Source: Minisyncoccota bacterium
GTDB lineage: Bacteria; Patescibacteriota; Minisyncoccia; UBA6257; 1-14-0-10-44-23
Length of the DNA stretch: 64,000 bases
Direction of reading: 5' to 3'
Assembly: GCA_041389085.1 (NCBI GenBank)
Contig: JAWKSL010000001.1
Location: 228,542-292,541 of the forward strand
Part shown: piece by piece, positions 2,039-59,709 of the stretch
How positions within the stretch are numbered: position 1 is the stretch's first letter
How the letters are laid out: each line of letters begins with the position of its first letter
Made by a program: the position numbers and the translations under genes
Notes under the pieces: model-generated
Databases searched by the model: none
Seen by the model: only the letters and a program-made list of their open reading frames with translations
What the model was told of the DNA's origin: nothing

Positions 2039-2083
2039 TGGATAGAGAAAAGTGCCTTAAAAGGCGCTAGAAAGGAGGCCTTG

Positions 2084-2317: not shown

Positions 2318-2330
2318 GCTCCCCGCCTGA

Positions 2331-19752: not shown

Positions 19753-20167
19753 AGACTTTATAGAGGGAATAGTGACACGAATGGGCTTTGCAGACGCCCA
19801 GGTTAGCGTTGATGAAGAAGGCCGAAGAATATCAGTTATTATCGACGATGGTGACTGGGTGGCGAAAAAAGTTCCCGACCTTGTTTCTGCCCTTCGACAG
19901 CTTACACGAGGGCTTGCGCGAAAGAATTCACTCGAGAATTACTTTATCGACATAAACAACTACAAGAAGGAAAGAGAGCGTCTCATTGTTGAGATAGGCC
20001 AGGCGGGTGCAAAGAAGGCAGTATTTGAAAAAGTAGAAGTGGCCCTGCCAGCAATGAACTCTTACGAAAGAAGGCTTGTACACGCAGACCTGTCTATGAG
20101 GCCCGATGTAAAGACTGAGAGCGCCGGAGAGGGCAAAGAAAGACACATAATAATAAAACCGCTGTAA
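19736..20167 (+). CDS. jag: Jag/KhpB-like KH/R3H RNA-binding protein
   Basis: Position after yidC, with a C-terminal R3H-like region. Confidence 0.65.
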   Translation: MDLQLKDFIEGIVTRMGFADAQVSVDEEGRRISVIIDDGDWVAKKVPDLVSALRQLTRGLARKNSLENYFIDINNYKKERERLIVEIGQAGAKKAVFEKVEVALPAMNSYERRLVHADLSMRPDVKTESAGEGKERHIIIKPL

Positions 20168-20195
20168 GCGGTTTTATTATTGAGCTGCTCGATAT

Positions 20196-31163: not shown

Positions 31164-31243
31164 AAGAGTTTAGAGATAAGAGTTACGACGTAAGAATAGC
31201 TCATAACGAAGCCTAAAGGCAAAACTTTGCGTTGCTCTAGAGT

Positions 31244-31265
31244 TAACTCTAGAGCTTAATATAGA
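31244..31265. repeat. perfect 22-bp palindrome gctctagagttaactctagagc (cassette B 5' element)
   Basis: Homologous to 1954-1987, including upstream context (aaggcaaa...ttgctctagag). Confidence 0.6.
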
Positions 31266-31300
31266 GCAGTAGTGCGCGAAGAGTTATTTCTTGACAATAA

Positions 31301-31329
31301 GGCTAATTTATTTTATTCTCTTGGCAGAG
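31301..31329 (+). promoter_or_regulatory. sigma70-like promoter of cassette B
   Basis: TTGACA, 17-nt spacer, tattct. Confidence 0.45.
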
Positions 31330-31356
31330 CGATGGTGCTCTTGAGGAGGTGTTGGG

Positions 31357-31605
31357 ATGTTCCGATCCACCACCTATTTGCTTCTCCTCGGCTTCTCTCT
31401 TGTTGGAGGGGCTGCGGTCATGACAGCTCTTCTGATGGTCAGCCTTGCGCTGACCGCGCACCTGCCGCCATGGCTTGAACTCGCGGCTCGCCTCGCGCTG
31501 GTTTTCTCAGTGCTGCGCTGGGCAGGCCCGGCCCTCGGGAGGCTTCTCATTCCGATGTTCCGAGCTTACATTTCAGCTCGGAACGCCAACCCTAGCGACT
31601 TGTAG
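31357..31605 (+). CDS. small (82 aa) membrane protein, GC-rich (cassette B), weak paralog of 2084-2317
   Basis: SD gaggagg; hydrophobic; shares an AHxPPWL motif with the cassette A protein. Confidence 0.5.
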   Translation: MFRSTTYLLLLGFSLVGGAAVMTALLMVSLALTAHLPPWLELAARLALVFSVLRWAGPALGRLLIPMFRAYISARNANPSDL

Positions 31606-31626
31606 TCGCTGGGGTTCAACTTTTCT
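31590..31626 (+). terminator. conserved terminator hairpin (~90% identical to 2331-2368)
   Basis: ccctagcgacttgtagtcgctgggg followed by ttcaactttt. Confidence 0.7.
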
Positions 31627-31680
31627 ATAATCTGATGGCAAAAAACACCCGAATTAATTCATAATTAATTCGGGTGTTTT

Positions 31681-33501
31681 TTATTCTATGTACATGTCGT
31701 CTTCGTCGGGTAGCCAGCCGCTGCCTCCATCTGCTGAGAGTACGTCGCAGTTTTCTTGCGGTATTTCGTAGAGGAAACGCGAAGGGTAGGAAAAGTACGA
31801 TATGTAGAGCTTTTTGCGTGCCCGCGTCATAGCTACGTACATAAGGCGCCTCTCTTCTTCTACCCCGTCCATTTCTTGGTAAGCCTTTTGGTGGGGCATG
31901 TTTCCGTCGTTTACTCCTACGATAAATACGGTGTCGAACTCAAGCCCTTTAGCTATGTGTACGGTCATAAGCTTTAGCTCAGACATCTTTTGCCCTTGCG
32001 GGTGCTTTGTTTGGTCGTCGTTTGCCTGCAAAAGGAGCACTTGGTCTAAAAATTCTCCCAAACTTTCAAAGCTGCTGGCGAAGTTTACTAACTCGGCTAT
32101 GTTTTCGATGCGCTCGTGCGCATTTTGCATCTTTTGCGCGAGGTATTCTGGGTATTCTGTGCTGGTGAGGAATATGTTTATTAGCTCAACTGCCGAGGTT
32201 GTTTGCACTTCCTTCATCGCAAGGACGTAAGCTGCCGTGCGTCTTTTGCCAAGGCTTTTTTCAAGGCGCTCAATCGATGCGGTATCTTTTTCATTGTGCG
32301 CAACGGTGAGCGCTGCGACTATATCTTTTATTTCTTTTCGGTCGTAAAAGCGAAGCCCTCCGTATATCTTATATGATATATGAAAGCTTAAAAGTGCTTG
32401 CTCGATAGAGCGGCTTTGCGCGTTGGTTCGATAGAGTATTGCAATGCTTTGGCTTGGGTCTTTTCTTCGCAACGACTGTATTTCGCTCGCTAGCCACAAC
32501 GCTTCCTCTTCTGCGCTGCTGCTTTGCACAAGAGTTATTGGCTGGCCTTCTTCGTTGTCTGTCCAAAGTTCTTTCTTTGCCTGCGTCTTATTGTTTTTTA
32601 TTAGTGCGTTTGCACTTTCAATTATTTTCTTTGTACTTCGGTATGATTGCTCAAGCTTTACTACTTTTGCGCTTGGCCAGTCGCGCTGAAAGTTGAGAAA
32701 GTTTCTAAAGTTTGCACCGCGAAAGCCATATATAGCTTGCTGATCGTCGCCTACTACGTTTACGTTTTTGTGTTTGTGCCCCAGAAGACGAATGAGTTGG
32801 TACTGCGCGTTGTTTATGTCTTGATACTCGTCTACCAAAATGTAGTCGAACATATCTTGGTATTTTTGTAGTACATTTTTGTGTGCAAGAAAAAGTTGCA
32901 CTGGTTTTTGAATGAGATCGTCGAAGTCGAGCGCATTATTTTCTTGGAGTTGTCTTTCGTACTCTGCGTAGACTTTGTAGATAAGAACGTCGCGTTCATA
33001 TTCACTGTCGATGAGCTCAGTTTCGTCTCTTAATTCGTTTTTTATCTTTCCGATTGCGCTTAGAGCTTGCGGTGGGCTTAATCTCTCTTTTGATATATCG
33101 AAAGACTTTAAAATCTTCTTTACGATCGACGCACTTTTATCGTTGTCGTAGATAGAAAGGTTTGGTGTGCGCTGCAAAAGAGCTACTTCTTGTTTTAAAA
33201 TTCGTAGGCCAAAAGAGTGGAAGGTTCCGATAAAAGGAGCGCCATCGAGCGGAAGCCCTGGGGAAAGCTTCATTTTTGCGCTCCCAAATACGCGCTCGCG
33301 CATCTCGTCTGCTGCCTTGTTGGTAAAGGTTATAGCAACTATGCGCTGTGGAGGTACGTTGTGTGCTTCAATCAGGTGCTTTAGGCGGCTGGTAAGGGCT
33401 CTGGTTTTACCACTTCCTGCCCCTGCAGACATAAGAAGAGGGCCGCTTCCGTGTTGAACAGCCTCTTTTTGAGGCTCGTTTAGGTTTTCGAGGTGTTTCA
33501 T
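31681..33501 (-). CDS. pcrA: UvrD/PcrA-family DNA helicase
   Basis: GAGSGKT Walker A and helicase motifs (VDEYQD); 606 aa, short form. Confidence 0.85.
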   Translation of the reverse strand: MKHLENLNEPQKEAVQHGSGPLLMSAGAGSGKTRALTSRLKHLIEAHNVPPQRIVAITFTNKAADEMRERVFGSAKMKLSPGLPLDGAPFIGTFHSFGLRILKQEVALLQRTPNLSIYDNDKSASIVKKILKSFDISKERLSPPQALSAIGKIKNELRDETELIDSEYERDVLIYKVYAEYERQLQENNALDFDDLIQKPVQLFLAHKNVLQKYQDMFDYILVDEYQDINNAQYQLIRLLGHKHKNVNVVGDDQQAIYGFRGANFRNFLNFQRDWPSAKVVKLEQSYRSTKKIIESANALIKNNKTQAKKELWTDNEEGQPITLVQSSSAEEEALWLASEIQSLRRKDPSQSIAILYRTNAQSRSIEQALLSFHISYKIYGGLRFYDRKEIKDIVAALTVAHNEKDTASIERLEKSLGKRRTAAYVLAMKEVQTTSAVELINIFLTSTEYPEYLAQKMQNAHERIENIAELVNFASSFESLGEFLDQVLLLQANDDQTKHPQGQKMSELKLMTVHIAKGLEFDTVFIVGVNDGNMPHQKAYQEMDGVEEERRLMYVAMTRARKKLYISYFSYPSRFLYEIPQENCDVLSADGGSGWLPDEDDMYIE

Positions 33502-33664
33502 CTGGTTTGTAGAGATACGATTAAGGATAGCACGGCATTTTTGTGGGGATAAGTTGTGTGTAATAGGCCTAAAATGTGTCGCAAAATAGTGGTTGACAGG
33601 GGTTTTTATGCTGGTATATTTGGCATATTCGGGTCTACGATAGTCTTTTCTGAGAGGCCCTGAG

Positions 33665-34777
33665 ATGCATCAAAATGGACGGTTTTCCCTTCAGAATGAC
33701 GCATCAGAATCAAATTTGAACTCACACACTACAGGCCAAGGGAATGGCGACGACGCTCCCTATAGATGGCCTTCAAAACTTAAAAATCTCGTAAAATCCC
33801 CTCTTTTCGGGGTCGGGGCTCTTTTTGTAATTTTGGGTATCGTGTTTACTCCAAGCGCGAGTTCTCAGGTAAGTTTTAGCGAGCCTACTTATTCTTTCGA
33901 TGATGGGGCTCTTAGCCTTGTAGTCGCAAGCGATGTGCCAGACGGCGTTGTTTTGGCAAACGATCCTCTTGAAGTAGCAGGGTTTGTTATCCTTGAGGAG
34001 TCTGTAGCTCTTGGTAGCGATAGCCCTGTGTTTATGGAGGGGGCAGATGGGCAAAAGCTTACGCGCGACGAAGTTATAACCTACACCGTTGCTGAAGGCG
34101 ACACCCTTTCTACCATCGCTGAGCAGTTCGGTATTTCCCTTTCTACCGTGCTTTGGGCAAACGAAGGCGTTGATGCAAAGCGTGTGCGTATAGGGCAGAA
34201 GATCGTTATCTTGCCTGTTTCTGGCGTGCGCCACACTGTGAAGAGCGGCGACACTCTTTCTAAAATCGCTTACAACTACAAAGTTTCAGCTGCAAAGATT
34301 ATGGAGTTTAATGACCTTGATGACGACGTAGTGCGCATTGGTCAAGAACTTCTCATTCCTGGCGGAAAGAAAACTTCAACCGCTTCTTCTGGCTCTGTTT
34401 CAAACAACATGCCAAGCTACGCTGGCTACTATGCAAAGCCTGCAAGCGGATACAACTGGGGCTCTCTACACGGAAACAACGGAGTAGACATTGCAAACGC
34501 TTGTGGCGCTACCCCTATCTACTCAGCTGCAGCCGGAACTGTTAAGGACGCAAAGTTTGGATGGAACGGTGGATATGGAAACATGGTCAGCGTTTCACAC
34601 GACAACGGAACCTGGACTCTCTACGCACACCTTAGCGATATTTCAGTAAGCTCTGGACAGAGCGTTTCACAAGGAAGCCTTCTTGGATACATGGGTAACA
34701 CTGGAAAGGTTTCTGGTGCTACCGGATGCCACCTTCACTTCGAGGTGCGCGGTGCCGCAAACCCATTTGCACATTAG
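33665..34777 (+). CDS. LysM-LysM-M23 peptidoglycan endopeptidase
   Basis: Two LysM repeats (YTVAEGDTLSTIA and HTVKSGDTLSKIA) and an M23 HxH motif (GCHLHFEVRG). Confidence 0.8.
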   Translation: MHQNGRFSLQNDASESNLNSHTTGQGNGDDAPYRWPSKLKNLVKSPLFGVGALFVILGIVFTPSASSQVSFSEPTYSFDDGALSLVVASDVPDGVVLANDPLEVAGFVILEESVALGSDSPVFMEGADGQKLTRDEVITYTVAEGDTLSTIAEQFGISLSTVLWANEGVDAKRVRIGQKIVILPVSGVRHTVKSGDTLSKIAYNYKVSAAKIMEFNDLDDDVVRIGQELLIPGGKKTSTASSGSVSNNMPSYAGYYAKPASGYNWGSLHGNNGVDIANACGATPIYSAAAGTVKDAKFGWNGGYGNMVSVSHDNGTWTLYAHLSDISVSSGQSVSQGSLLGYMGNTGKVSGATGCHLHFEVRGAANPFAH

Positions 34778-35020
34778 CCTCCTCTCCTTCCTTAATTTTC
34801 TTAGTTTCCTAACTTTTCAGCTCTTTGTTTTTCTTTTCGAAAAATGCTCAATGATACACTTCGTAGTATCACCTGCGCTTTTTCGCCTTGAAAACAAAAA
34901 CTAAAAAGAGAAACCTAAATAACTAAGGAAGGAAGAGAAGGCTGGGGGGGCGCAGCGGCAGTTTCTCATAGCTGGCGCTTTTTGTTTTGGTTTGCTACCG
35001 TGGGCTTGAAGGAGGTTCAC

Positions 35021-35284
35021 ATGAACGCAGTCCCTGTGAGTTTGAAGTGGCTGAAGGTGCGCCTTGCGGTGCTTGAAACAGGCGAGCTTTTGGCCTGGTA
35101 CACCGGTCTGGTTGTGCTTGCCGCCGCATTCTTCCAAGCCATGATGTACGGCCTTTGGCCTTACTTCTACCTCTGGTTCGCTGCAGGGGCTCTGTGGTGG
35201 ATCGGGAAGGGGCTTGGGGCGCGCGCAGACGCTTTGCGTCACATTGTGCGCCCTGAGCTCAACGCAGGCGCCAGTCGAAGATGA
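35021..35284 (+). CDS. small (87 aa) membrane protein, GC-rich (cassette E)
   Basis: SD aaggagg sits 6 nt upstream of ATG (MNAVPV); W/L/A-rich TM helices. The stop codon lies inside the terminator hairpin. Confidence 0.45.
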   Translation: MNAVPVSLKWLKVRLAVLETGELLAWYTGLVVLAAAFFQAMMYGLWPYFYLWFAAGALWWIGKGLGARADALRHIVRPELNAGASRR

Positions 35285-35299
35285 CTGGCGCCTTTAATT
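35267..35299 (+). terminator. terminator ggcgccagtcgaagatgactggcgcc followed by tttaatt
   Basis: Perfect 10-bp stem. Confidence 0.55.
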
Positions 35300-35319
35300 A
35301 TTTGCTATACTTTCTATGT

Positions 35320-35664
35320 ATGGCATTAACACAAGAACAAATAGAGAAAGCGAAGGCTCGCCTCGAGGAGTTGCGCGCTGAGCTCGAAAAAGACATAGAC
35401 TACCTTGAGTCTCCGGTAGACTATGGCGACGACATTGATAGTGGAGATGAGGAGGCTGATGAAGCAGAAGAGTTTTCTGCAAACGCTGGGCAAGCTCTCG
35501 ATGTGCACGCACGGCACGAAGCAGTAGTAACTGCGCTTTCAAAAATTGATCGCGGTGTGTACGGCACGTGCGAAGAATGCAGTGGGCAGATAGAAGAAGA
35601 AGTGCTGCTTGTAAACCCAGAAGCTCGATACTGCAAAAAAGACATTGCTAAAAAGAATTCTTAA
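35320..35664 (+). CDS. DksA/TraR-family C4 zinc-finger protein
   Basis: CEECSGQIEEEVLLVNPEARYC four-cysteine finger after a coiled-coil region. Confidence 0.6.
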   Translation: MALTQEQIEKAKARLEELRAELEKDIDYLESPVDYGDDIDSGDEEADEAEEFSANAGQALDVHARHEAVVTALSKIDRGVYGTCEECSGQIEEEVLLVNPEARYCKKDIAKKNS

Positions 35665-35666
35665 CG

Positions 35667-37217
35667 ATGAGTGGGCGCGTAGCAAAGCTGTATTCTGCTG
35701 AGCTTGAGGGAATACAGGCGCGTCTTGTTGAAGTGGAGGCCGACGTAAGTGTTGGCCTCCATTCGTTTTCTATCGTTGGCTTGGCCGACAAGGCCTTAAA
35801 CGAGGCTAAGGAGCGCGTAAATGCAGCTCTGAAACACGCTGGAGTAAATCCGCCTAGTAAAGAAAACAGGCGGATTGTTGTAAACTTGGCGCCGGCTGAT
35901 TTAAAAAAGACTGGTACACACTACGATTTAGCTATCGCTATCGCCTACTTGGCGGCGACAAATCAGATAAAGGATTTTGATTTTTCTAAAACACTTTTCT
36001 TAGGCGAGCTTTCTCTTTCTGGTGAACTTAGGCCGGTGTCGGGAGTTTTGAGCATTGCTTCTTTTGCTAAGAGAAGGAAAATGAAGCGCATTATACTTCC
36101 CTATTCAAACGCACGCGAAGCTGCGCTTATCGACGGTGTCGATATCATTCCGGTAAAGACACTTACTGAGCTCATTGGCTTCCTAGAAGGGAAGCTGGCG
36201 ATAACGCCGCAGGAAAAAACCACTATTTCTACCGATTTTGAAAGCAGGAGCGAGGTAGACTTTGCCGATGTGTATGGGCACGAGGCGGTAAAGCGCGCTC
36301 TTTTAATAGCAGCTACTGGTGGGCACAACGTACTTTTGAGCGGGCCTCCAGGCACAGGGAAGACTATGCTTGCTCGTGCTTTTTCTACCATACTGCCTGA
36401 GCTTTTGGAGCAGGAAGTTTTAGAGCTTACAGAAATTTATAGTAGTGCTGGGCTTTTGGGCGAGTTTGGCTACGTAGCTTCCAGGCCTTTTCGCAGCCCA
36501 CACCAAAGTGCCTCCGCTGTAGCTCTTATGGGCGGTGGGCAAATGCCAAAGCCTGGGGAGATAAGCTTGGCGCACAAGGGAGTTTTGTTTCTAGATGAAG
36601 TTGCTGAGTTTCGAAAAGATGTGCTTGAAAGCTTGCGCCAGCCTATCGAGAGCGGGCGCGCGATTATTAGTAGAGCGCGCGCACGGTTGGAGTTTCCAGC
36701 AAACTTTGTACTTGTGCTTGCTATGAATCCTTGCCCATGTGGGTTCTATCAAGATGAGGAGCGCGCATGCAAATGTAGTGCGCACGAAGTTTTGCGCTAT
36801 CAGAAAAAGCTTTCAGGTCCCCTACTCGACAGAGTCGACATACAGGTAGAAGTGCCGCGCATTTCCATTGAAGAACTTTCTGCGCGCAATGCAAAAGAAG
36901 GCAGCGCAAGTAGTTCTATTCTTCGCGCACAAGTGAAAAAGGCGCGCGCGTTTTCACACGAGCGCATGGAGGAGTTTGGCGTTGAGAAAAAACAAAACAG
37001 TGATTTGCAAAATAAAGAGCTTGAAAATATAGCTCAGCTCGATGAGGATGCACACAACTTTGTGCAGAGAGTTTTTGATAAGAGCCTGGTGAGTCCGCGC
37101 GGATATTATCGAATTTTGAAAGTAGCGCGCTCTATCGCCGACCTAGAAGGAAGCGATACGGTGAAGCGTTCACACATTTCCGAGGCATTTGGATACAGAG
37201 TGAGGCAGGCTGACTAA
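35667..37217 (+). CDS. yifB: YifB/ComM-family Mg-chelatase-like AAA+ ATPase
   Basis: LLSGPPGTGKTMLA Walker A and a C-terminal ChlI-like domain. Confidence 0.85.
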   Translation: MSGRVAKLYSAELEGIQARLVEVEADVSVGLHSFSIVGLADKALNEAKERVNAALKHAGVNPPSKENRRIVVNLAPADLKKTGTHYDLAIAIAYLAATNQIKDFDFSKTLFLGELSLSGELRPVSGVLSIASFAKRRKMKRIILPYSNAREAALIDGVDIIPVKTLTELIGFLEGKLAITPQEKTTISTDFESRSEVDFADVYGHEAVKRALLIAATGGHNVLLSGPPGTGKTMLARAFSTILPELLEQEVLELTEIYSSAGLLGEFGYVASRPFRSPHQSASAVALMGGGQMPKPGEISLAHKGVLFLDEVAEFRKDVLESLRQPIESGRAIISRARARLEFPANFVLVLAMNPCPCGFYQDEERACKCSAHEVLRYQKKLSGPLLDRVDIQVEVPRISIEELSARNAKEGSASSSILRAQVKKARAFSHERMEEFGVEKKQNSDLQNKELENIAQLDEDAHNFVQRVFDKSLVSPRGYYRILKVARSIADLEGSDTVKRSHISEAFGYRVRQAD

Positions 37218-37525
37218 TTTTGTACCTCAAGAGTTGCTTCTGGCCCTGTTGATCCTTGGCCGAATTTGAAAAAGAGAAATGCGCCGGCAGCTCCGGCAAC
37301 GACTACGAGAAGAGAGATGAGAATTATGAGCTTTTTCGAGCTCTTTTTTTGTGGCTTTGGTGTACCAACAGTTGCAACTTGTGGAGCGCTTACCCTTTGC
37401 GGTTGTACAAGCTGTGGTTCTGGTACTGCAAGGCCGCGTGCAACGCTTTGGGCGTCGCTACTAAGTGTGCGCAGAGAAACTTCTGGTACTGGCGGTGGGC
37501 CTACTTGCTGTGTTTCATTTGGCAT
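37214..37525 (-). CDS. proline-rich protein with C-terminal TM anchor, hypothetical
   Basis: ORF plus a C-terminal hydrophobic helix. Confidence 0.3.
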   Translation of the reverse strand: MPNETQQVGPPPVPEVSLRTLSSDAQSVARGLAVPEPQLVQPQRVSAPQVATVGTPKPQKKSSKKLIILISLLVVVAGAAGAFLFFKFGQGSTGPEATLEVQN

Positions 37526-37593
37526 GTTGGTTGTAGTATAGCAAAAAAAGAATACCGCCGGGCCCTGGGTGGGCACGGCGGTAAGCTGGTGGT

Positions 37594-37806
37594 TCAGGGG
37601 AAGGCAACGAGATCGTCGTCGCTTGCATGCCCTGCACGCTTCGTACGCTCCGCAAGCTCGTTGATGTCGGTCTTCTTGAAGACCATCTGGCCTCCGTCTC
37701 TGAAGGCGCGGATCTCCCCTTCCGTAACGAGGCGCTTGAGGCGATTCTCGTCGATACCGAGCACTTCCATTGTCTCGTCAAAGCTGTAGTAGGCGGACCC
37801 TTCCAT
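37594..37806 (-). CDS. small HTH DNA-binding protein (excisionase/MerR-like), GC-rich
   Basis: METLGIDENRLKRLVTEGEIRAF helix-turn-helix; 70 aa. Confidence 0.5.
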   Translation of the reverse strand: MEGSAYYSFDETMEVLGIDENRLKRLVTEGEIRAFRDGGQMVFKKTDINELAERTKRAGHASDDDLVAFP

Positions 37807-44100: not shown

Positions 44101-44126
44101 TTGTTACGTAGCTTGCTACGTAACAA
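44101..44126. repeat. perfect 26-bp palindrome ttgttacgtagcttgctacgtaacaa
   Basis: Same element as 2369-2398; lies just past the terminator of the minus-strand mini-gene. Confidence 0.55.
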
Positions 44127-44127
44127 G

Positions 44128-44160
44128 AAGTGAAGAGGCGCGACTCAGGGAGAGTCGCGC
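44128..44160. terminator. bidirectional terminator (fba on +, mini-gene on -)
   Basis: ggcgcgactcagggagagtcgcgcc followed by tttcg. Confidence 0.55.
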
Positions 44161-44303
44161 CTTTCGCGTGTGAGGCTGTCGCCGCTTACGAAGAAGAGAA
44201 GGGCGGCAGTGAAGGCAGCTACGAGGAGCCCGACCCACCACAGGCCAGTTCCCTTTGCGACTCCGAAACCAAGCGCAGATCCGATGATGAGGTCGCAGTG
44301 CAT
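44145..44303 (-). CDS. unannotated 52-aa hydrophobic mini-protein, GC-rich (cassette D)
   Basis: Perfect SD aggagg sits 5 nt upstream of ATG. Sequence MHCDLIIGSALGFGVAKGTGLWWVGLLVAAFTAALLFFVSGDSLTRERRDSP. A TTGACC promoter lies upstream; the stop codon is inside the terminator hairpin. Confidence 0.45.
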   Translation of the reverse strand: MHCDLIIGSALGFGVAKGTGLWWVGLLVAAFTAALLFFVSGDSLTRERRDSP

Positions 44304-44390: not shown

Positions 44391-44837
44391 ATGATTAGTT
44401 TGATTGTTGCGATGGACAAGGAGCGATGCATTGGCAAGAACGGTTCTTTGCCGTGGCATCTTCGCGCTGATTTGCAGCGCTTAAAAGATATAACTACTGG
44501 GAACGCAATTATTATGGGGCGCGCAACTTTTGAATCGATTGGTAAGGCGCTGCCAAATCGGCAAAACATTGTTCTTACCTCTGATAAGAACTTTTCTTTT
44601 CCTGGTGTTGAGGTTGCAAATTCTCTCCAGGAGGCTTTTGGGCTTGTGGAAGATGGCCGGGAGGCAATTGTGTTTGGCGGAGCTTCTGTCTATGAAGCTG
44701 CGCTGCCGCAGGTTGCCGTCGACATCGTAACGCCAAAAGTCGAGCTATGCGAAGTGGAAACTTTTAGCATGATCAAACCAGACGTTGTTGTAATTTCTCA
44801 ATCAACAAAAGCACACGACAGGAGAAACAGTTGCTGA
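44391..44837 (+). CDS. folA: dihydrofolate reductase
   Basis: MISLIVAMDKERCIGKNGSLPWHL...TTGNAIIMGRATFESIG. Confidence 0.8.
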   Translation: MISLIVAMDKERCIGKNGSLPWHLRADLQRLKDITTGNAIIMGRATFESIGKALPNRQNIVLTSDKNFSFPGVEVANSLQEAFGLVEDGREAIVFGGASVYEAALPQVAVDIVTPKVELCEVETFSMIKPDVVVISQSTKAHDRRNSC

Positions 44838-45375
44838 TCTGGGAAGGTTTCAGGTGCTGAAGTTGCTTGTTTTCAAAACCACAAGCGACTACTTCAACAA
44901 TTGCAAAGCTTCGTCTTATGCAGATTTCTACTGCAAAGAAGTTACGGAAACACTTCCACAAAAGATGGCTCAGCTCATTGAAGAGCTGGCGGGCGGAGAA
45001 GTTTCTAAGAGCCGAAAAAAGAAATGAAAATAGTTCTTTGCTACTTGCCAGTTTTGCACGAAGAAGAATTATTATCAGTTTCAAAACCTACAAAGACACT
45101 GGTATTTGTATTCTTGGGGAAAACTTTTTTGAAGACAAGCCTCTTTCAAGGAGCATCCCCGCGCACTCGGCCTGTTTTAGCTAAAAAAGCTCTTAAAGGC
45201 TGGGCAATCTTCCCAGCAGTGCGCATAGTCGAAAAAGCCGACGTGCTAAACCTTGATAAAGAAGGGGCTCTGATAGTAATGCCAAACGATGAGTTGTGAG
45301 TGACGCGATCTTACGACTTCTGAGCTCAACTTTCCTTCGACTCTATCTTTTTGCGTTGGGATAAGCACCGCGCTA

Positions 45376-45837
45376 TGGAAATGAAACCAGTAGAAGTTGA
45401 CCAAACGCTTTCAGCTGAAGATTTCCTGCGTGGATTCTTTCAAGTTTAAAAATGAAGCAGAAGAAAAAGGCTCTAAGACATTTGGCGCCGCATTGGTGCG
45501 GCGATCGTGAAGAGACGGTGAAATTGTTTCGCAACGTACAATAAGCATGTACCAAGTGAGCACGCCCATTTAGCCTCTGGTGATCCGAAATAATTTTCAA
45601 AGGAGTTTGCGTTGAACTCTCTGTTTTTGCATGCAGAGTCTGCATGTTGCGCAGGCTGCCAAAAATGGAGTTTCTCTTGAGGGTGCAGACATGTATCTGG
45701 CGGGTGTTTCCTTGCCGCCCTGCGCTAAGGGCTGTTGCTTATTCGGGCGTAAAGACACTACTCCTGGTGGGTACAGAGTTCTCAGCAGTGCTGACATACT
45801 CAAGGCTCAAGGAGTGGAAATAATATACGTAGGCTAG
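45376..45837 (+). pseudogene. dCMP deaminase (ComEB-like) pseudogene, frameshifted
   Basis: Pieces in different frames: FGAALVRRS (VGAVIV-like), then an intact C-terminal half in-frame, ...GADMYLAGVSLPPCAKGC (PCxxC zinc motif). Confidence 0.5.
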
Positions 45838-47056
45838 ATTCGTAAATGAGAAAGGCGCGCAACACTTGCGCAGCCAATCGCGCCTTTCACGTGCTAACCG
45901 TTAGGCCTTCTTCATCCTGCCCTCGAGCAGCTGGAGCTCTTCTTGTAGTGGGCGCATGACTGCTTCAACGGCTCAGTGCTGCCGCCACGCTGAGCTCGTA
46001 AGGCGTCTCGGAAGACCTCTACGAGGCTCCTTTCTCCTCGAGCTTCTCACGGCGTCTGCCTTGAAGAGAGGCAGACGCCTCTGCGCTGCCATTCGGCACG
46101 AGCACGTTCTGTGTCACAGGTGGCGGATGGTGCCTGCGATCGAGGCGCACGGATCAGCCGAAGCGCATGAGCGAACCACCACCAGGAAGGTTGATGCCCT
46201 TGATGAACCCTCCACTCATCATCTGCCTCCGGGAAGGTGCCGATCCCTCTCCAGTGGCTCGGCTCCACCAGGGGCCGAGTCAGTCTTGTGTTCACGGGGA
46301 GCCATGACCGGTGGCGGCAGTACCCTTCGCTGGGTAGAGTTGGCCCAGAAGCTCTCCATCCGGAGTGCTCGACGAACACGCCTTGTTCTTCTCGGGGTCG
46401 AGGTTGCAGAAGGGCACTCTCCTGCCTGCAGCATGTTGCGCATGGCAACAGTACTGGGTAGCATGAAAGTACTTGCAGCGCAGCGGTCTTCATGATCCTG
46501 TGGTTGAAATTCGCAGCTCTTGGGGTGCACGAGATTATCCTCGCTGGGGTTCCTAGTTCTTGGGTTCTTCTCGGTTTTCAACTATTTTCCCCGCTGTAGT
46601 CAAGCAGCTGCACGAGTTTTTACCTTGACTGACTGGTGGTTTGGCTGAAATCTACGTTTCCTTGTAGAAGTTGTGCGTGTATGTGCTTTACACTTCGCCG
46701 GTGTATTTTGTGTTTAAAGCGGACAAATGAAGGAGCACTACTTCCCCTGTGTTGTCCTGCGAGCCACTGCCAGTGCCTTCCGAAACTCTTCAAATTCCTG
46801 GCAAGGCCAGTTCACTGATATGCTCGGCGTGTCTTTTAAAATAAGGATGAAATGATTTGCTTTGTTCCTTCGTATGGCTTGCTGGTTTTTGTCGTAAGCC
46901 AGAGTCTCCTTCTTTGAGAATTGGTTCTTTGTGGTACTTATCCTAGGCTTTCTTTACAGAAAGGGCAATTGTCGTCTTCTACTATTTGCTGCATCACTTT
47001 TTTCTGCTCGTCGATGCGTGAATTTCAAATCTGCAAGTGTTTCTTTCGCTCATATT

Positions 47057-47507
47057 CTACAAGCAATAATTGTATTGGTTGGTTTCATCTGACTGATGGC
47101 ACTCTCTACTACTTTCTTGCCATTCACTCTCTTTTACTTCTGAGAAAAACTCATCGCCTTCTATTTCGCAGTCTACTTCGGTAGCTGGAACGTTTTATCC
47201 TACTCGGAAGAGCTTCTTTATATGCCTGCTCCGCCAAAAATGAATGGTTTTTGCCTTCCTCTACTTTTGTCAGGGCTTATCAGGCTGTGGGCGGCAAATA
47301 TCTGGGGCAGCAAATGCTTTGTCTGAAGTTGAGTACGATGTTTGTCTGTTTGGGAGCGCTTTGCCGATGGACTCCATTTTTTGCGTCCCATGATGGTGCA
47401 TTTCCTGTTGTGAGTTCTTTTACTCTTTGCATGTCACTTTTAGACGCAAGGTACTTGCCAGCTCCAATGCAGCGGTTTTTTGAGTATGCAACGATAAGAT
47501 AGAGCAT
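47057..47507 (-). pseudogene. second dihydrofolate reductase copy, pseudogene (inverted relative to intact folA)
   Basis: Pieces in different frames: LMLYLIVAYSKNRCIG...TTGNA...; PFIFGGAGIYKEALP; GDEFFSEVKESEWQESS...NYCL. Confidence 0.55.
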
Positions 47508-47617
47508 TAAATTGCTACTGGAATGTCTTTTATTCCTGGGTGTGGGTTGTGGTCGGTAGCTCAAAGTCGTCTTTTCTAAACTTAACAAATCGGTATTGTC
47601 GAGTGCCAGTTTGTTAT

Positions 47618-48368
47618 TTACAGTGGGCGCCCTCGCTCAAGCATTTGCTGCAACATCTTGGTCATATATGTGCGTCTGAAAAGCTGTGCAAATTCGCGGA
47701 ATATTTGTAAGCTTTGCGAAGCATCATTAGGGCGCATACTGCACCATGTTGCTTGGCACTCCGACTGGCACGTCGGCACTTCTTTGTATCATGTGCCGTC
47801 AAAAACACCGTCCTGCGGTAACGTGTGTACCCAGCCGTGACAAAGGACAAATTGCGCTTTTTGTGTCTTCCCCTCTCCCCTTCCAGTGTTGGGAGCCTGC
47901 AGGTTACAAAGTGAGTTCTTAGGGTGTGGAAATTCTTTTATCTGCTCAGCAACATAGCAGACAGTTATAGATCACCAGCAACTAGAAGACGGAGTATTGA
48001 ATGCTGCTCCGTGTGAGCCAGGGCCCAAATCTCCTGTTTCGATCACTTTTTGCGCCTCTTCCGTTGCCCATGGTCCCCACCAACCGTAGCTTTCAATTTC
48101 TTCTAGCGTTCTCGCTCCATTTATAAAAGCAATAATCTCGGCAATTGCTTGCTTCCATATAGTTACCGGCAATCGATCTGACTCTTTTGGGTATGTTGCT
48201 TTCATTGATGATTGGAAACCCGTTTCTAGTTTGAAGTGGAGGGATCGTGGTCCGATCCGGTAATAGCATCTACTCCTTGTTGTTTTCACGAATAGTTCCC
48301 TTGTCGAGAATTTCTTGAAGGAGCTCTTTATATTGTGTATCCGGGGTCCTTTGATCGATTGGGTTCAT
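47618..48368 (-). pseudogene. thyA: thymidylate synthase ThyA pseudogene (frameshifts, stops and substitutions)
   Basis: Pieces in different frames: MNPIDQRTPDTQYKELLQEILDKGT; RSLHFKLETGF...IWKQAIAEI...EEIESYGWWGPWATEE...GDLGP; YQRSADVPVGVPSNMVQYAP; ALMML; SDAHI; QQMLERGRPL. Confidence 0.6.
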
Positions 48369-48454
48369 GCTTTTGGGTGGGTTATTTTCTTAGTATATCA
48401 GTAGCTCTGGCCAATAAACTCTTGCCGGTAGAGCTTCTGGTATTCTCAGCTTCT

Positions 48455-49122
48455 ATGAAAGTAGAACTACAAAGCCAGCGTACGCGACATTTTGGAGTCG
48501 CAAGGTTGAGACACTTCGCTCTGAGGGCCTTATTCCTGCTGAGCTATATGGAAATGAAATTGAAAACCAGCACCTTAGTGTTGATGCAAAGAGCTTTAAC
48601 AAAGCTTTCGACCGAGCTGGAGAAAACACACGCAGACTATGCCATTGATGGAAGGTTTTGCCGGTGCTGCCCGCTGTACAGACCCACTACCTTAGTGGTG
48701 ACGTTATCGCTATCGACTTCTACGCGCCAAACTTGAAGAGGCGAAGAAGTTACTGTTTCTGTGCCAATAGTATTTAAAGGTGAGAGCCCTGCAGTAAAGG
48801 GAGGAGATGGATCTTCGTGCCTTCACTCGAAGAGCTCGAAGTTGAGTGTTTGCCTACCGCAATCCCTCACGAGTTTGAAGTAGACATTTCTTCACTCGCT
48901 AAAGTTGGAGACTCAATTCTTGTAAAAGATATTGCTGTTCCAGCTGGGGTAAAGGTAGCTGTTGAAGGCGAAACCTCAGTAGCAAGTATCGCTGCAAAGA
49001 TGACTGAAGAGGAAGACGCAGCTATGAGTGCTGAAGCGGACGTTGCAGCAGTGTCTGTAGAGGGAGAAAAGAAGGAAGACGAAGCTGCTGAAGGAGCTGA
49101 AAGCGCTGAAGCTTCTGAGTAA
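48455..49122 (+). pseudogene. rplY: ribosomal protein L25/Ctc with at least four frameshifts; every segment is still well conserved
   Basis: Segments in different frames: MKVELQSQRT | TFWSRKVETLRSEGLIPAELYGNEIENQHLSVDAKSFNKAFDRAGENT | ADYAIDG | KVLPVLPAVQTHYLSGDVIAIDFYAPNL | TVSVPIVFKGESPAVKGGDG | LEELEVECLPTAIPHEFEVDISSL... Confidence 0.6.
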
Positions 49123-54629: not shown

Positions 54630-55436
54630 ATGAATACCATTGCAGAGATATTATTGGTTGGATTTGGCATCATGCTCGTGAGCCTTTCAGGTGTTTTATT
54701 CCTTGGTGGGCTTACCCAGCGTTGGCTTTCGAAAAACCTGCCTCTTTTGCTTAGTTTTTCCGCTGGAGTGTTCTTTCTTACCGCCTTTGACCTTGTGCGA
54801 GAATCGTTTGAGCTTTTGAGCGCAACATTCGCTGGGCTTTCTGTTTTGGGAGGCTACCTTCTCTTTCTTTTGCTTCAGCGCGCTATACCGGAGAGCCATC
54901 ACCACCACGGAGCGGACGATTGCGACGATTCTCACAATGAAAGAAGCGCGCTCCGCATTCTCTTAGGAGACGCTATTCATAATGCTGGTGACGGCATTCT
55001 TCTCGTTCCTGCCTTCTTGGCAAGTCCTGCACTCGGCTTTGCTACTTCCATTAGTATCTTTGCTCACGAGTTCCTTCAGGAGATTTCTGAATTCTTCATC
55101 CTTAAAGGCGCTGGCTACTCTACCGGCAAGGCGCTCGCCCGAAACTTCTTTGCCTCTTCTACTATTCTTGTTGGTATCTTTCTTGGTTTTATTCTTCAGT
55201 CTTTGGGCGAGGTGCAGGGTGTGTTGCTCGGTGTTGCAGCAGGAGGATTTCTCTACATCGTTTTTCACGATTTAATCTTGCACCGATCAACTTCGCTTAA
55301 GGGAAAGAGGTTTGTGTTTCACGTTGTTGCCTTTCTCTTTGGTGCAGTTGCCATTCTTTATATTGGCTCGCTCTTTGTGCATGGGCATGGGGTTGAGTCT
55401 GACCAACACGATCAAGAAATTTTACATCTAGAATAA
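54630..55436 (+). CDS. ZIP-family metal (zinc) transporter
   Basis: Eight-TM-type hydrophobicity, a His-rich loop (SHHHHGADDCDDSHNE), and HNAGDG/HEF motifs. Confidence 0.6.
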   Translation: MNTIAEILLVGFGIMLVSLSGVLFLGGLTQRWLSKNLPLLLSFSAGVFFLTAFDLVRESFELLSATFAGLSVLGGYLLFLLLQRAIPESHHHHGADDCDDSHNERSALRILLGDAIHNAGDGILLVPAFLASPALGFATSISIFAHEFLQEISEFFILKGAGYSTGKALARNFFASSTILVGIFLGFILQSLGEVQGVLLGVAAGGFLYIVFHDLILHRSTSLKGKRFVFHVVAFLFGAVAILYIGSLFVHGHGVESDQHDQEILHLE

Positions 55437-55458
55437 AAGCCCCGTTGGGGCTTTTATT

Positions 55459-55848
55459 TTACTCTGTTGTTTGTCCGTCGAAGTGTTCTTCTTTCTCTTC
55501 TTCTTTTGTCTTGTGCACGGTTTGATCTTTGTGCTCTGGTGGAGAGTAGATTGAATAAATCTTCAGGTCAGTATCTGACTCGTTTATAACGTTGTGCCAG
55601 GTTTCGCGCGGTATAACGATGGCGAAATCCGCTTCTACGATGTGCTCTTCACTATTGTTGAGCACTACTTTTGCCCTCCCCTGCTCGACGCGGATAAACT
55701 GGTCGAGGTGGTGCATCTCATTTCCTATCTCCTGCCCTGGCTTGATGCACATAAGAACAAGCTGGCTGTACTTACTGGTGTACAGCACGCGACGATAGTC
55801 GGTGTTTTCAAGAGTTTCCTTCTCTATGTTTGTAATAAATCCTTTCAT
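55459..55848 (-). CDS. cupin-domain protein
   Basis: Two-His/Glu cupin motif pattern (…GNEMHHLDQFIRV…); 129 aa. Confidence 0.55.
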   Translation of the reverse strand: MKGFITNIEKETLENTDYRRVLYTSKYSQLVLMCIKPGQEIGNEMHHLDQFIRVEQGRAKVVLNNSEEHIVEADFAIVIPRETWHNVINESDTDLKIYSIYSPPEHKDQTVHKTKEEEKEEHFDGQTTE

Positions 55849-59520: not shown

Positions 59521-59532
59521 TGTAAACCATAA

Positions 59533-59583
59533 ATCAAAAACACGACGCAAGGTCGTGTCTCTGATTTTGTCGGGCCGCCGGGA
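59533..59583. repeat. 51-bp direct repeat copy 1 (tRNA-Pro 3' end + terminator hairpin)
   Basis: atcaaaaacacgacgcaaggtcgtgtctctgattttgtcgggccgccggga is identical to 59710-59760. Confidence 0.8.
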
Positions 59584-59709
59584 CGCTTCGCTATCTCACT
59601 CTCTGAAAACCCACGGTTTTCCAGCGCATGCTTCGCGTGCTGCCTTCCTACACGGGGAACTTCCGTTCCCCGACCCCCTCCCGTCCGATTCCCGGCCCGT
59701 ACTTTAGTA

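What the first reader, a model, noticed from the sequence alone, without database searches (positions are those of the whole stretch)
35021..35299. Cassette E: another GC-rich small membrane peptide with strong SD and a terminator that contains its stop codon
An 87-aa W/L/A-rich two-TM peptide (MNAVPV...) with aaggagg SD lies between the LysM-M23 hydrolase and dksA-like genes. Like cassette D, the stop codon is embedded in the terminator stem; the terminator hairpin overlaps the dksA-like ORF's annotated 5' end. Its G/C-ending codon usage contrasts with the neighbours.
Basis: seen in the sequence. Interest (0 to 1): 0.5.

Follow-up and report, generated by a model that had tools for sequence, protein, structure and literature searches.

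The report
Orphan GC-rich membrane-peptide gene cassette
A small gene for an 87-residue, two-helix membrane peptide sits between two copies of a duplicated transcription terminator in a Paceibacterota (CPR) genome; its codon usage and perfect ribosome-binding site are unlike any native gene there, and it has no relative in any database searched, so it is a lineage-private accessory gene, not a known system.

Summary
ATG 35021 to TGA 35284 encodes 87 aa. AAGGAGGT lies 4 nt upstream. An 11-bp perfect hairpin plus T-tract (35266-35303) contains the stop codon. GC3 is 0.68 against 0.47 expected (z 4.5).

New findings:
1. None of 51 native genes has a Shine-Dalgarno motif, but 6 of 7 GC3-rich ORFs in the window do (p = 2e-7).
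2. The SD and ORF body lie between two copies of a ~48-nt direct repeat (terminator, T-tract, TTTGCTA). A relative at 88-90% nt identity has the same repeat.
3. Two sister cassettes (A and D) are absent from the same loci in that relative.
4. Stop-in-terminator also occurs at native genes, so it is a habit of this genome.
5. The dksA-like gene starts at 35320, so the hairpin does not overlap it.
6. The peptide has no homologue in any of the protein, metagenome, viral, plasmid, phage or syntenic-locus searches.

Best reading: a genuine, lineage-private small membrane protein carried on a foreign-looking insert, similar to a phage moron. Its function is unknown. Conservation of the ORF body could not be tested, because the relative's assemblies break at both inner repeat edges.

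The parts
34778..34945 (+). AT-rich (35% GC) long imperfect hairpin that starts right after the M23 stop codon. Whether it belongs to the cassette is uncertain. It may be the M23 3' UTR or terminator region.
   Evidence: The 34765-34960 fold gives -58.1 kcal/mol, z -4.4, with 0 of 200 shuffles as good. Inverted repeats I1-I3 lie here. Only window 34911-34997, whose first 35 nt (34911-34945) are the hairpin's 3' end, is conserved in the relative (82%). The relative instead carries a canonical terminator, GAGTCGGC-TTT-GCCGACTC followed by T5.
34950..34997 (+). Left copy of the direct repeat: a decayed terminator hairpin (GCGCAGC...GCTGGCGC), then TTTTTGTTTTGG, then TTTGCTA.
   Evidence: Local alignment with 35262-35307 scores 14, against a shuffle mean of 6.8 and maximum of 13 (0 of 2000 as good). 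The equivalent pair in the relative scores 17 (0 of 2000) and shares an exact ATGACTGGCGCTTTT.
35009..35016 (+). Shine-Dalgarno sequence AAGGAGGT, 4 nt before the ATG.
   Evidence: None of 51 native genes has even a 5-mer SD before its start.
35021..35284 (+). pepE ORF, 87 aa, a two-helix membrane hairpin with basic N- and C-termini. Its last 6 codons and the stop (GGC GCC AGT CGA AGA TGA) lie inside the terminator hairpin.
35266..35303 (+). Intrinsic terminator: 11-bp perfect stem, 6-nt loop, T-rich tail. It contains the stop codon at 35282-35284.
   Evidence: In the relative, 26 of 27 bases are conserved, against 87.7% for the whole dksA-comM contig. The single change gives a G-U wobble pair.
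35262..35307 (+). Right copy of the direct repeat: the intact terminator, T-tract and TTTGCTA.
35306..35322 (+). TATACT -10-like box (35306-35311), 8 nt before the true dksA-like start codon ATG at 35320. This is where the downstream dksA-comM unit restarts.
   Evidence: Homologues in L032, L059 and L007 begin at the equivalent Met. The NCBI protein MEZ4156636.1 is 114 aa. The same -10-next-to-ATG layout is seen at many native genes.

Best explanation
Cassette E is a genuine, lineage-private accessory gene. About 270 nt of GC-rich DNA (34998-35265) carries a canonical Shine-Dalgarno site and the first 81 codons of an ORF. This segment sits between two copies of a pre-existing M23/dksA intergenic terminator. 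The ORF reads on into the right-hand terminator copy and stops in its loop.

The product is an 87-residue alpha-helical hairpin. By the positive-inside rule, both ends should face the cytoplasm (N-in/C-in).

Expression (inferred). No promoter of its own is visible. Transcription therefore probably comes by read-through from the consensus M23 promoter at 33593-33620, or from a weak -10 at about 34914. Translation initiation would be SD-dependent, unlike every native gene in the window. Transcription ends at the strong hairpin, which insulates the dksA-comM unit; that unit restarts from its own TATACT box.

Origin (inferred). The codon regime, the SD and the GC-rich terminator style are shared with 5-6 other ORFs in the window and are foreign to the host genome. 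The unit is therefore best read as imported or mobile DNA, similar to a phage moron, that was fixed at a rearrangement junction.

Biochemical role (inferred, weakly). A membrane-active small protein, holin-like, toxin-like or envelope-modulating.
For: Coding signal. An 8-nt SD lies at optimal spacing. The frame is open (5.6% of shuffles) and is more hydrophobic than composition predicts (p 0.003), while the five other frames are not hydrophobic. Codon position 1 is G-rich and position 2 is T-rich. The AlphaFold2 model is a helical hairpin with pLDDT 78.6. NCBI annotates the gene.

Foreign character. GC3 z is 4.5. The per-codon log-likelihood ratio for the 'GC3-rich pool' against native usage is +0.077, against a native mean of -0.221, sd 0.082 and maximum -0.052. 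An SD is present in 6 of 7 GC3-rich ORFs and 0 of 51 native genes, Fisher p 1.7e-7. SD-like motifs are at chance level in 70 related Paceibacterota loci, median 0.11. This agrees with the report that the anti-SD motif is detected in only 48% of Parcubacteria 16S rRNAs (PMC9297842).

Insert architecture. The ~48-nt flanking direct repeat beats 2000 of 2000 shuffles in the window and in the relative.

Accessory behaviour of sister units. Cassette A is absent in L085 and cassette D is absent in L090, at otherwise collinear loci with 82-90% identity. Applying the same filter found 4 such SD+TM GC-rich ORFs in the 64-kb window, against 1 doubtful case in about 870 kb of related loci.

Junction. Relatives have dksA-comM followed by M23(-) and uvrD(+). 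The window has uvrD(-), M23(+), pepE, dksA, comM and p120(-), which is one inversion away, and pepE sits on the new junction.

Terminator.. It is more conserved than its surroundings in the relative.
Against: There is no homologue anywhere, so neither purifying selection nor a donor can be shown.

The ORF body could not be read in the only close relative, because its contigs stop at window-equivalent 34997 and restart at 35266.

No promoter of its own was found. A terminator-like left repeat copy lies in the leader, so expression is unproven.

A 100-codon open frame in 60% GC DNA is not rare by chance (about 4-6% per frame), and the antisense strand also has a 113-codon ORF.

One GC3-rich gene, the HD-domain gene at 500-1096, keeps GC3 of 0.66 in a relative with 77% aa identity. 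The codon regime can therefore be old and stable rather than a sign of recent import.

If this lineage lacks the anti-SD, the SD would not work in cis.
Confidence: 0.55

Rival explanations
1. Native origin. The ORF arose or diverged in place after a tandem duplication of the terminator region at the inversion junction. This would be a de novo or very fast-evolving lineage-specific gene. Its GC3 and SD would reflect a special expression class, with SD-dependent translation reserved for a few small membrane proteins, and not horizontal transfer.
For: The flanking repeat is a duplication of local sequence. The ORF's last six codons and its stop are supplied by the native-type terminator. There is no donor homologue anywhere. 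The GC3-rich HD gene keeps its GC3 (0.66) and its terminator in a relative with 77% aa identity, so this codon regime can persist vertically. The repeat arrangement is already present in the 88-90% relative.
Against: A 270-nt segment at 60% GC, with synonymous choices opposite to native ones, is hard to generate from local 46% GC sequence. For example, CCA falls from 0.57 to 0.05 and GTA from 0.43 to 0.08. Self-BLAST finds no local source for the body. Sister cassettes A and D behave as presence/absence insertions.
Confidence: 0.15
2. The ORF is not functional. Under this reading the segment is a decaying fragment of imported DNA, or a chance open frame in GC-rich sequence, and only the terminator matters to the cell.
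For: It is an orphan. No promoter was found. A terminator-like repeat copy lies just upstream of the SD. Open frames are common in GC-rich DNA, and there is a 113-aa antisense ORF. The host clade does not use SD motifs (PMC9297842). Three sister ORFs are not even in the protein collection.
Against: Several independent features coincide: a perfect 8-nt SD at 4-nt spacing, an ATG, an open frame, frame-specific hydrophobicity (p 0.003) and a two-helix model. The same architecture recurs in four unrelated ORFs.
Confidence: 0.15
3. It is a membrane-damaging peptide. One option is a type I toxin controlled by an antisense RNA or a structured leader. The other is a class II holin-like partner of the adjacent LysM-M23 peptidoglycan hydrolase.
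For: It is small, has two transmembrane helices and a charged basic C-terminal tail. It lies directly downstream of a peptidoglycan hydrolase. Several unrelated copies sit in intergenic positions and the taxonomic range is very narrow, as is typical of type I toxins (background knowledge). The mRNA is more structured than shuffles, z -2.8 for the ORF body. A weak promoter-like site on the minus strand at 35326-35297 faces into the 3' end.
Against: At 87 aa it is longer than most type I toxins. No antisense RNA gene or terminator was identified. There is no hit to PHROGs, Pfam, NCBIfam or PADLOC. The M23 gene is a conserved housekeeping neighbour of uvrD in about 29 relatives that have no such peptide. 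There is no phage context.
Confidence: 0.1
4. The GC-rich segment is a structured non-coding RNA, and the ORF is incidental.
For: It is a GC-rich island in a 46% GC genome. The plus strand folds better than shuffles, z -3.4 with the terminator and -2.8 without it.
Against: There is no Rfam match at the gathering threshold or at E below 1. The leader (34930-35030) is not more structured than shuffles, z -0.24. Frame-specific coding signals are present. No covariation test is possible.
Confidence: 0.03

Closest known systems
Phage 'morons': extra genes in prophages carried as independent units with their own terminator, and usually promoter, and with atypical base composition
   Same: A single small gene sits between genes that are adjacent or differently arranged in relatives. 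Its composition is distinct (GC3 z 4.5). It has its own strong intrinsic terminator. Sister units A and D carry consensus TTGACA-17-TATNNT promoters and are present or absent between close relatives.
   Different: It is not in a prophage. No phage or viral homologue or context was found. Cassette E has no visible promoter of its own. It is flanked by a ~48-nt duplication of a host terminator. It also differs from its host in translation-initiation signal (SD against SD-less), which is not part of the moron concept.
Integron gene cassettes and isolated attC-bearing cassettes
   Same: A short ORF with its own SD is followed by a hairpin-forming site that overlaps the stop codon. Cassettes A and D share ends but carry unrelated ORFs.
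   Different: The hairpin is a 28-nt perfect stem-loop with a T-tract. It is not an imperfect attC of 55-140 nt with extrahelical bases and R''/R' cores. No integrase is adjacent, there is no array, and the units are dispersed singly.
Type I toxin-antitoxin toxins and class II holins (small hydrophobic membrane-active proteins)
   Same: Size class, two predicted transmembrane helices, a charged C-terminal tail, orphan status, and multiple unrelated copies in intergenic DNA.
   Different: No antitoxin RNA was found. The peptide is longer than most type I toxins. There is no lysis-cassette or phage context and no family match.
Intrinsic terminators that abut or overlap stop codons, used as a proxy for uncoupled ('runaway') transcription (Johnson et al. 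2020, as summarised in PMC7858274)
   Same: The stop codon lies inside the terminator hairpin. A ribosome at the stop would mask the 5' arm, so the hairpin can only form when transcription runs ahead of translation.
   Different: Here this is not a property of the cassette. Native genes in the same window show it too (20149-20181, 55429-55461, 31640-31682), so it describes the genome and not this element.

Membership tests
Rho-independent (intrinsic) terminator | A G+C-rich stem with a short loop, directly followed by a T/U-rich tract, on the coding strand at the end of a transcription unit | tested here: met
   The stem is 11 bp and perfect, with 8 G-C pairs in the tool's 12-pair count that includes the flanking A-T pair. 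The loop is 6 nt and the tail is TTAATTATTT. Folding energy is -23.9 kcal/mol, z -5.3. The T-tract is interrupted by A residues.
SD-led bacterial protein-coding gene | A Shine-Dalgarno complement 4-9 nt before a start codon that opens an ORF with coding-type composition | tested here: met
   AAGGAGGT, then 4 nt, then ATG. The ORF is 87 codons. Position-specific composition and hydropathy are frame-specific.
SD-led bacterial protein-coding gene | Purifying selection or conservation of the reading frame in relatives | not testable with these tools
   No homologue exists in any collection. The contigs of the only close relative stop at the repeat edges.
SD-led bacterial protein-coding gene | The host 16S rRNA carries the anti-SD (CCUCC) | not testable with these tools
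   There is no rRNA gene in the window. The literature reports the anti-SD motif in only 48% of Parcubacteria 16S rRNAs (PMC9297842).
Phage moron / horizontally acquired single-gene island | Base composition and codon usage distinct from flanking genes | tested here: met
   GC3 is 0.678 against 0.466 expected, z 4.5. The codon log-likelihood ratio lies outside the native range.
Phage moron / horizontally acquired single-gene island | Inserted between genes that are contiguous in related genomes (empty site observed) | tested here: inconclusive
   The M23|dksA junction exists only in this lineage among the loci compared. The 88-90% relative has the same repeat-flanked arrangement, but its middle segment is unassembled. 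Empty sites were observed for sister cassettes A and D only.
Phage moron / horizontally acquired single-gene island | Own promoter | tested here: not met
   No sigma-70-like site scoring at least 8 of 12 lies on the plus strand in 34700-35020. Cassettes A and D do have one.
Phage moron / horizontally acquired single-gene island | Located in a prophage, or with an identifiable donor | tested here: not met
   No PHROG hit. Nothing was found in IMG/VR, phage or plasmid collections. The neighbours are housekeeping genes.
Integron gene cassette | An attC site: an imperfect palindrome of 55-140 nt with R''/L''/L'/R' boxes and extrahelical bases | tested here: not met
   By inspection, the 3' hairpin is a 28-nt perfect stem-loop with a T-tract. 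No GTTRRRY core is seen at the boundaries.
Integron gene cassette | Integron integrase and an attI site or cassette array nearby | tested here: inconclusive
   The adjacent genes are M23, DksA-like, ComM and UvrD. The only recombination-related gene seen is a 70-aa excisionase-family HTH at 37594-37806. The whole window was not scanned for integrases.
Class II holin | A small protein with two transmembrane helices and a charged C-terminus | tested here: met
   Helices are at 6-43 and 46-85 in the model, with hydrophobic cores at about 23-45 and 48-66. The C-terminal tail is ARADALRHIVRPELNAGASRR.
Class II holin | Part of a phage lysis cassette with an endolysin, or membership of a holin family | tested here: not met
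   The M23 neighbour is a conserved chromosomal gene paired with uvrD in relatives. There is no Pfam, PHROG or NCBIfam hit.
Type I toxin-antitoxin | A hydrophobic toxin, usually under 60 aa | tested here: not met
   The peptide is 87 aa.
Type I toxin-antitoxin | A cis- or divergently encoded antisense RNA antitoxin | tested here: inconclusive
   Only a weak promoter-like site (9 of 12) on the minus strand at 35326-35297, with no terminator for such an RNA. There is no Rfam hit.

The most novel reading that the evidence does not exclude
The window may reveal an undescribed kind of mobile single-gene cassette in CPR bacteria. These would be roughly 270-480-nt GC-rich units, each encoding a different two-helix membrane peptide. 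Each brings a canonical Shine-Dalgarno site, and often a consensus sigma-70 promoter and a GC-rich terminator, into a clade whose own genes do not use SD-dependent initiation. The units would insert at or next to intrinsic terminators or palindromes, duplicating them, and would vary between close relatives and possibly within populations. In that case pepE would be one allele of a replaceable slot between the two terminator copies. The expression signals could even be tuned for a different translation apparatus, such as specialised ribosomes or the host cell of this presumed epibiont.
Probability: 0.15. Interest if true: 0.75.

Novelty: new variant of a known kind. Interest (0 to 1): 0.5.

Why it matters
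CPR/Patescibacteria genomes are small and mostly syntenic, and the sources of their accessory genes and host-interaction factors are poorly known. Here a set of small membrane-peptide genes stands apart from the host genome in three independent ways: synonymous codon choice, use of a Shine-Dalgarno site in an SD-less clade, and terminator style. Two members are shown to be present or absent between close relatives. If these genes are expressed, they pose a testable question about whether SD-dependent initiation still works in Parcubacteria, which are reported to have often lost the anti-SD. They would also be candidates for envelope-active factors in an episymbiont. If they are not expressed, they are a clean example of how foreign DNA lodges at terminators in a streamlined genome. 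For annotation, three of the four peptide ORFs are missing from the public protein set.

Tried and rejected
Homology searches for the peptide (all negative):
- The word-seeded search of 5.8 billion clusters found only the peptide itself.
- Exhaustive phmmer against 1.84 billion representatives found only itself.
- The JGI metagenome scan gave two hits, both antisense to a glutaminase gene in a low-GC organism, so they are spurious.
- IMG/VR gave nothing, and tblastn against plasmids and phages gave nothing.
- Pfam, PHROGs, NCBIfam and PADLOC gave no hits; the only sub-threshold line was an 11.7-bit match to the NCBIfam lctP permease family, E 0.084 against a 341-bit cut-off, treated as noise.
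- PDB sequence search and Foldseek gave nothing significant.
- tblastn against 80 syntenic ComM loci gave no hit.

Non-coding RNA: Rfam at the gathering threshold and at E below 1 found only tRNAs elsewhere in the window, and ARAGORN found no tmRNA.

Relatedness to the other cassettes: there is no DNA repeat shared with cassette E, and the peptide comparison with cassette D gives E = 22. Cassettes A and D share flanks but not ORFs.

Cassette D peptide: no homologue was found.

Exact-match terminator patterns in viral contigs: none.

Attempts to recover the relative's version of the ORF body: exact look-ups of pepE, of longer-start variants and of the relative's DksA all failed.

Rejected ideas:
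- Translational coupling of pepE to dksA through the ATGA overlap at 35281. That ATG is not the conserved start.
- Stop-in-terminator as a hallmark of the cassettes. Native genes share it.
- F-type ATPase subunit c. There is no GxGxG motif and no acidic residue in helix 2 (by inspection).
- attC/integron membership. See the membership table.
Full report
**1. What is at the coordinates**

The plus strand carries AAGGAGGT at 35009-35016, followed by 4 nt, then ATG at 35021. An 87-codon ORF ends at TGA 35282-35284. An 11-bp perfect inverted repeat (35266-35276 and 35283-35293) has the loop GAAGAT and the tail TTAATTATTT. It folds at -23.9 kcal/mol, with z -5.3 and 0 of 200 shuffles as good. The stop codon straddles the last loop base and the first two bases of the 3' arm.

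The ORF is annotated at NCBI as MEZ4156635.1, a hypothetical protein with locus tag R3B52_01475. It comes from a Candidatus Paceibacterota MAG with a 312,629-bp contig.

The neighbours are:
- a LysM+Peptidase_M23 protein (33665/33716-34777) upstream;
- a DksA/TraR-type zinc-finger protein downstream;
- a YifB/ComM ATPase downstream;
- UvrD further upstream on the minus strand.

**2. Is it more than chance?**

GC3 is 0.678. The value expected from the peptide sequence and native synonymous usage is 0.466 +/- 0.048 (z 4.5, 0 of 3000 simulations). Only 0.026% of 88-codon windows in 40 native genes reach 0.67.

Codon choice fits a pool of the other GC3-rich ORFs better than it fits native usage. 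The per-codon log-likelihood ratio is +0.077. Native genes have a mean of -0.221, sd 0.082 and maximum -0.052.

An open 87-codon frame alone is weak evidence, since 5.6% of shuffles are open and there is a 113-codon antisense ORF. The frame is, however, much more hydrophobic than its composition predicts: mean Kyte-Doolittle value 0.55 against -0.15 +/- 0.26, p 0.003. None of the other five frames is hydrophobic.

Only 8 of 1,496 ATG triplets in the window have a 7-mer SD core upstream. Four of these belong to the GC-rich small membrane ORFs.

A single-sequence AlphaFold2 model gives two helices, 6-43 and 46-85, that break at G44-L45, just before W46-P47. Mean pLDDT is 78.6. Both termini are basic, which predicts an N-in/C-in hairpin (inference from the positive-inside rule).

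**3. The translation signal is foreign to the genome**

None of 51 native ORFs has even a 5-mer SD before its start. Only 5 of 51 have one before any in-frame start candidate in the first 60 codons. Many native genes instead have a TATAxT box 6-10 nt before the ATG, including the dksA-like gene (TATACT at 35306-35311).

The same absence of SD motifs holds in 70 related Paceibacterota loci, where the median fraction is 0.11. It also agrees with the report that the anti-SD motif is detectable in only 48% of Parcubacteria 16S rRNAs (PMC9297842).

In contrast, 6 of the 7 GC3-rich ORFs in the window carry SD motifs of 6-8 nt (the orf5367 count is by inspection). These are pepE, pepD (31357), pep2084, pep44145, the HTH_17 ORF at 37594-37806 and orf5367. 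Fisher p is 1.7e-7.

**4. Stop-in-terminator is a habit of the genome**

Native genes show the same layout:
- the stop at 20165-20167 lies inside the hairpin 20149-20181;
- the stops at 55434-55436 and 55459-55461 lie inside the hairpin 55429-55461;
- the uvrD stop overlaps the hairpin 31640-31682.

This pattern has been used as a proxy for uncoupled ('runaway') transcription (Johnson et al. 2020, as summarised in PMC7858274). It describes the organism and not the cassette.

**5. The dksA start**

Homologues in L032, L059 and L007 begin at the Met that corresponds to ATG 35320. The NCBI protein is 114 aa. The ATG at 35281, which overlaps the pepE stop as ATGA, opens an unconserved extension. 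The hairpin therefore lies in a 35-nt spacer and not inside dksA.

**6. Context in distant relatives**

Eighty loci were retrieved using ComM as the query (39-59% aa identity; the Paceibacterota-type loci 46-59%, four Actinobacteria 38-41%). Of these, 68 keep the dksA-like gene directly upstream. M23 (29 loci) lies downstream on the opposite strand, followed by uvrD (45 loci). In L032, a p120-like membrane protein precedes dksA.

The window order is uvrD(-), M23(+), pepE, dksA, comM, p120(-). This is one inversion of the dksA-comM block away from that consensus, and pepE sits on the new M23|dksA junction. None of the 80 loci encodes a pepE-like peptide.

**7. Context in close relatives**

Cluster look-ups found Logan contigs from samples SRR23004066, SRR23004069, SRR23004071, SRR23004074 and SRR23004075. 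They carry M23 and uvrD at 88-90% nt identity (L090-L094) and dksA-comM at 87.7% (L086). In comM, 166 codon differences are synonymous and 19 are non-synonymous. This relative shares the inverted arrangement.

Four M23 contigs end at exactly the base equivalent to window 34997. The dksA contig begins at exactly the base equivalent to 35266. The hairpin is conserved at 26 of 27 bases, and the single change gives a G-U pair.

Aligning the two flanks shows that pepE is bracketed by a direct repeat of about 48 nt: the whole terminator, the T-tract and TTTGCTA. The window copies are 34950-34997 and 35262-35307. The local-alignment score beats 2000 of 2000 shuffles in both genomes, and the relative's copies share an exact ATGACTGGCGCTTTT.

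The SD and codons 1-81 therefore lie between two copies of a local terminator. The last six codons and the stop come from the right-hand copy. The body itself could not be recovered from the relative. Why four assemblies break at the same left edge (window-equivalent 34997), and the one dksA-comM contig recovered starts at the right edge (35266), is unexplained. Population heterogeneity of the inter-repeat segment is one possibility (inference).

**8. Sister units**

The window holds at least three other SD-led, GC3-rich ORFs that each encode a two-helix peptide:
- 2084-2317 (cassette A);
- 31357-31605 (cassette D);
- 44145-44303 on the minus strand.

Cassettes A and D share an 81-nt 5' flank at 78% identity, which includes a GCTCTAGAG-YTAAC-TCTAGAGC palindrome. 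They also share a 36-nt terminator at 94% identity. Their ORFs are unrelated apart from an AH..PPWL patch. Both have TTGACA-17-TATNNT promoters.

Cassette A (1893-2371) is absent in relative L085. Cassette D (31274-31690) is absent in relative L090, at otherwise collinear loci. The same filter finds 4 such ORFs in the 64-kb window, against 1 doubtful case in about 870 kb of related loci.

Cassette E shares no sequence with these units and lacks a promoter of its own.

One caution applies. The GC3-rich HD-domain gene (500-1096) keeps GC3 of 0.66 and the same terminator in a relative with 77% aa identity, where its neighbours have GC3 of 0.39-0.49. The codon regime can therefore be long-lived.

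**9. Interpretation**

The best-supported reading (confidence about 0.55) is a real, lineage-private small membrane protein gene. It is carried on a foreign-looking insert lodged between duplicated terminators at a rearrangement junction.

- Shown: the anatomy, the compositional and SD anomaly, the flanking repeat, and the accessory behaviour of sister units.
- Inferred: expression (probably by read-through from the M23 promoter at 33593-33620), SD-dependent translation, membrane insertion, foreign origin, and any function.

The rivals are:
- in-place origin of a fast-evolving native gene (0.15);
- a non-functional relic (0.15);
- a specific toxin or holin-like role (0.10);
- a structured RNA (0.03).

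**10. Novelty**

The individual ingredients are known kinds: an orphan small membrane protein, a moron-like island, and a terminator that overlaps a stop codon. The combination does not match anything I could name: several unrelated GC-rich, SD-led mini-genes in an SD-less CPR genome, one bracketed by a duplicated terminator and two that vary between close relatives. Two full-text searches pairing 'Shine-Dalgarno' with 'Patescibacteria' or 'candidate phyla radiation' listed no title or abstract describing it. I rate it a new variant of a known kind, with moderate interest (0.5). The decisive test is read-level recovery of the inter-repeat segment in the relatives.

Noticed in passing
whole window (for example upstream of 7259, 10104, 23770, 35320 and 49187): Native genes have no Shine-Dalgarno motif (0 of 51). 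Many have a TATAxT box 6-10 nt before the start codon, which suggests leaderless or SD-independent initiation. Related Paceibacterota loci show the same lack of SD motifs.
   Followed up: yes
window 1893-2371: Cassette A has a TTGACA-17-TATTTT promoter (2010-2038), AAGGAGG, a 77-aa two-helix ORF (2084-2317, GC3 0.70) and a terminator (2329-2357). It is absent at the collinear site in relative L085 and absent from the public protein collection.
   Followed up: partly
window 31274-31690: Cassette D has a promoter (31291-31319), AGGAGGTG, an 82-aa ORF (31357-31605) whose TAG stop lies in the terminator loop (31588-31616), and a 20-bp AT-rich hairpin at the uvrD end (31640-31682). The relative L090 has only about 49 nt in place of the whole segment.
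   Followed up: partly
window 1953-1988 and 31234-31255; L090 about 3590-3611: Perfect palindromes of the form GCTCTAGAG(C/T)TAACTCTAGAGC lie upstream of the holA-like and ksgA genes. The ksgA copy is also present in the relative, where there is no cassette. They could be an operator or an insertion hot spot.
   Followed up: partly
window 2373-2394 and 44103-44124; L085 about 1997-2018: The palindrome GTTACGTAGC..GCTACGTAAC recurs 3' of cassette A and of the unit at 44145, and also in the relative at the empty cassette A site, in inverted orientation.
   Followed up: no
window 44145-44303 (-): A 52-aa GC-rich (GC3 0.69) two-helix ORF has AAGGAGG 4 nt upstream. A TTGACC / extended -10-like element was seen by eye only; the strand-matched scan lists no promoter there. 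A hairpin GGCGCGACT..AGTCGCGCC begins just before the stop. The ORF is not in the protein collection.
   Followed up: partly
window 37594-37806 (-): A 70-aa HTH_17/excisionase-family ORF has GC3 of 0.74 and AAGGAG upstream. It lies between PNPase and the p120 membrane protein and has no counterpart in the 80 related loci.
   Followed up: partly
window 500-1096 and 1103-1124; L083-L085: An HD-domain (YfbR-like) gene has GC3 of 0.66 and a GGCGCC...GGCGCC terminator. A relative with 77% aa identity keeps both, while its neighbouring genes have GC3 of 0.39-0.49.
   Followed up: yes
window 5367-5879: A 170-aa GC3-rich orphan ORF (MEZ4156607.1) has GGAGGA upstream, two N-terminal hydrophobic segments and a 16-bp terminator at 5886-5921. 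A 99.6% identical copy occurs in Logan sample SRR32608987.
   Followed up: partly
window 34778-34945: A long AT-rich imperfect hairpin (z -4.4) lies between the M23 stop and the GC-rich leader. The relative has a different sequence here with a canonical terminator. Only the block at 34911-34997 is conserved.
   Followed up: partly
window 33665-37576 compared with L001-L080: The dksA-comM block is inverted relative to the consensus Paceibacterota order (p120, dksA, comM, then M23 on the opposite strand, then uvrD). The 88-90% relative shares the inversion.
   Followed up: yes
L090-L093 ends and L086 start (window-equivalent 34997 and 35266): Independent Logan assemblies break at the inner edges of the direct repeat that brackets pepE: four contigs end at the left edge and the one dksA-comM contig starts at the right edge. 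The segment between the repeats is on no retrievable contig.
   Followed up: partly
window 45841-46540 and 44837-48800: A 700-nt island at 60-64% GC has no Rfam match and no credible ORF. The surrounding 4 kb lacks long ORFs and contains a DHFR-like fragment (47280-47588, minus strand) and what looks, by eye only, like a ThyA fragment (47972-48289, minus strand); neither was searched. These suggest pseudogenes.
   Followed up: no
window 59532-59583 and 59709-59760: An exact 52-nt direct repeat overlaps the 3' part of tRNA-Pro (59746-59817). This is a partial tRNA duplication, as is left by integration at a tRNA gene.
   Followed up: no
window 35732-35763: A 14-bp terminator-like hairpin followed by a T-rich tail lies inside the first 100 nt of the comM coding region.
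   Followed up: no
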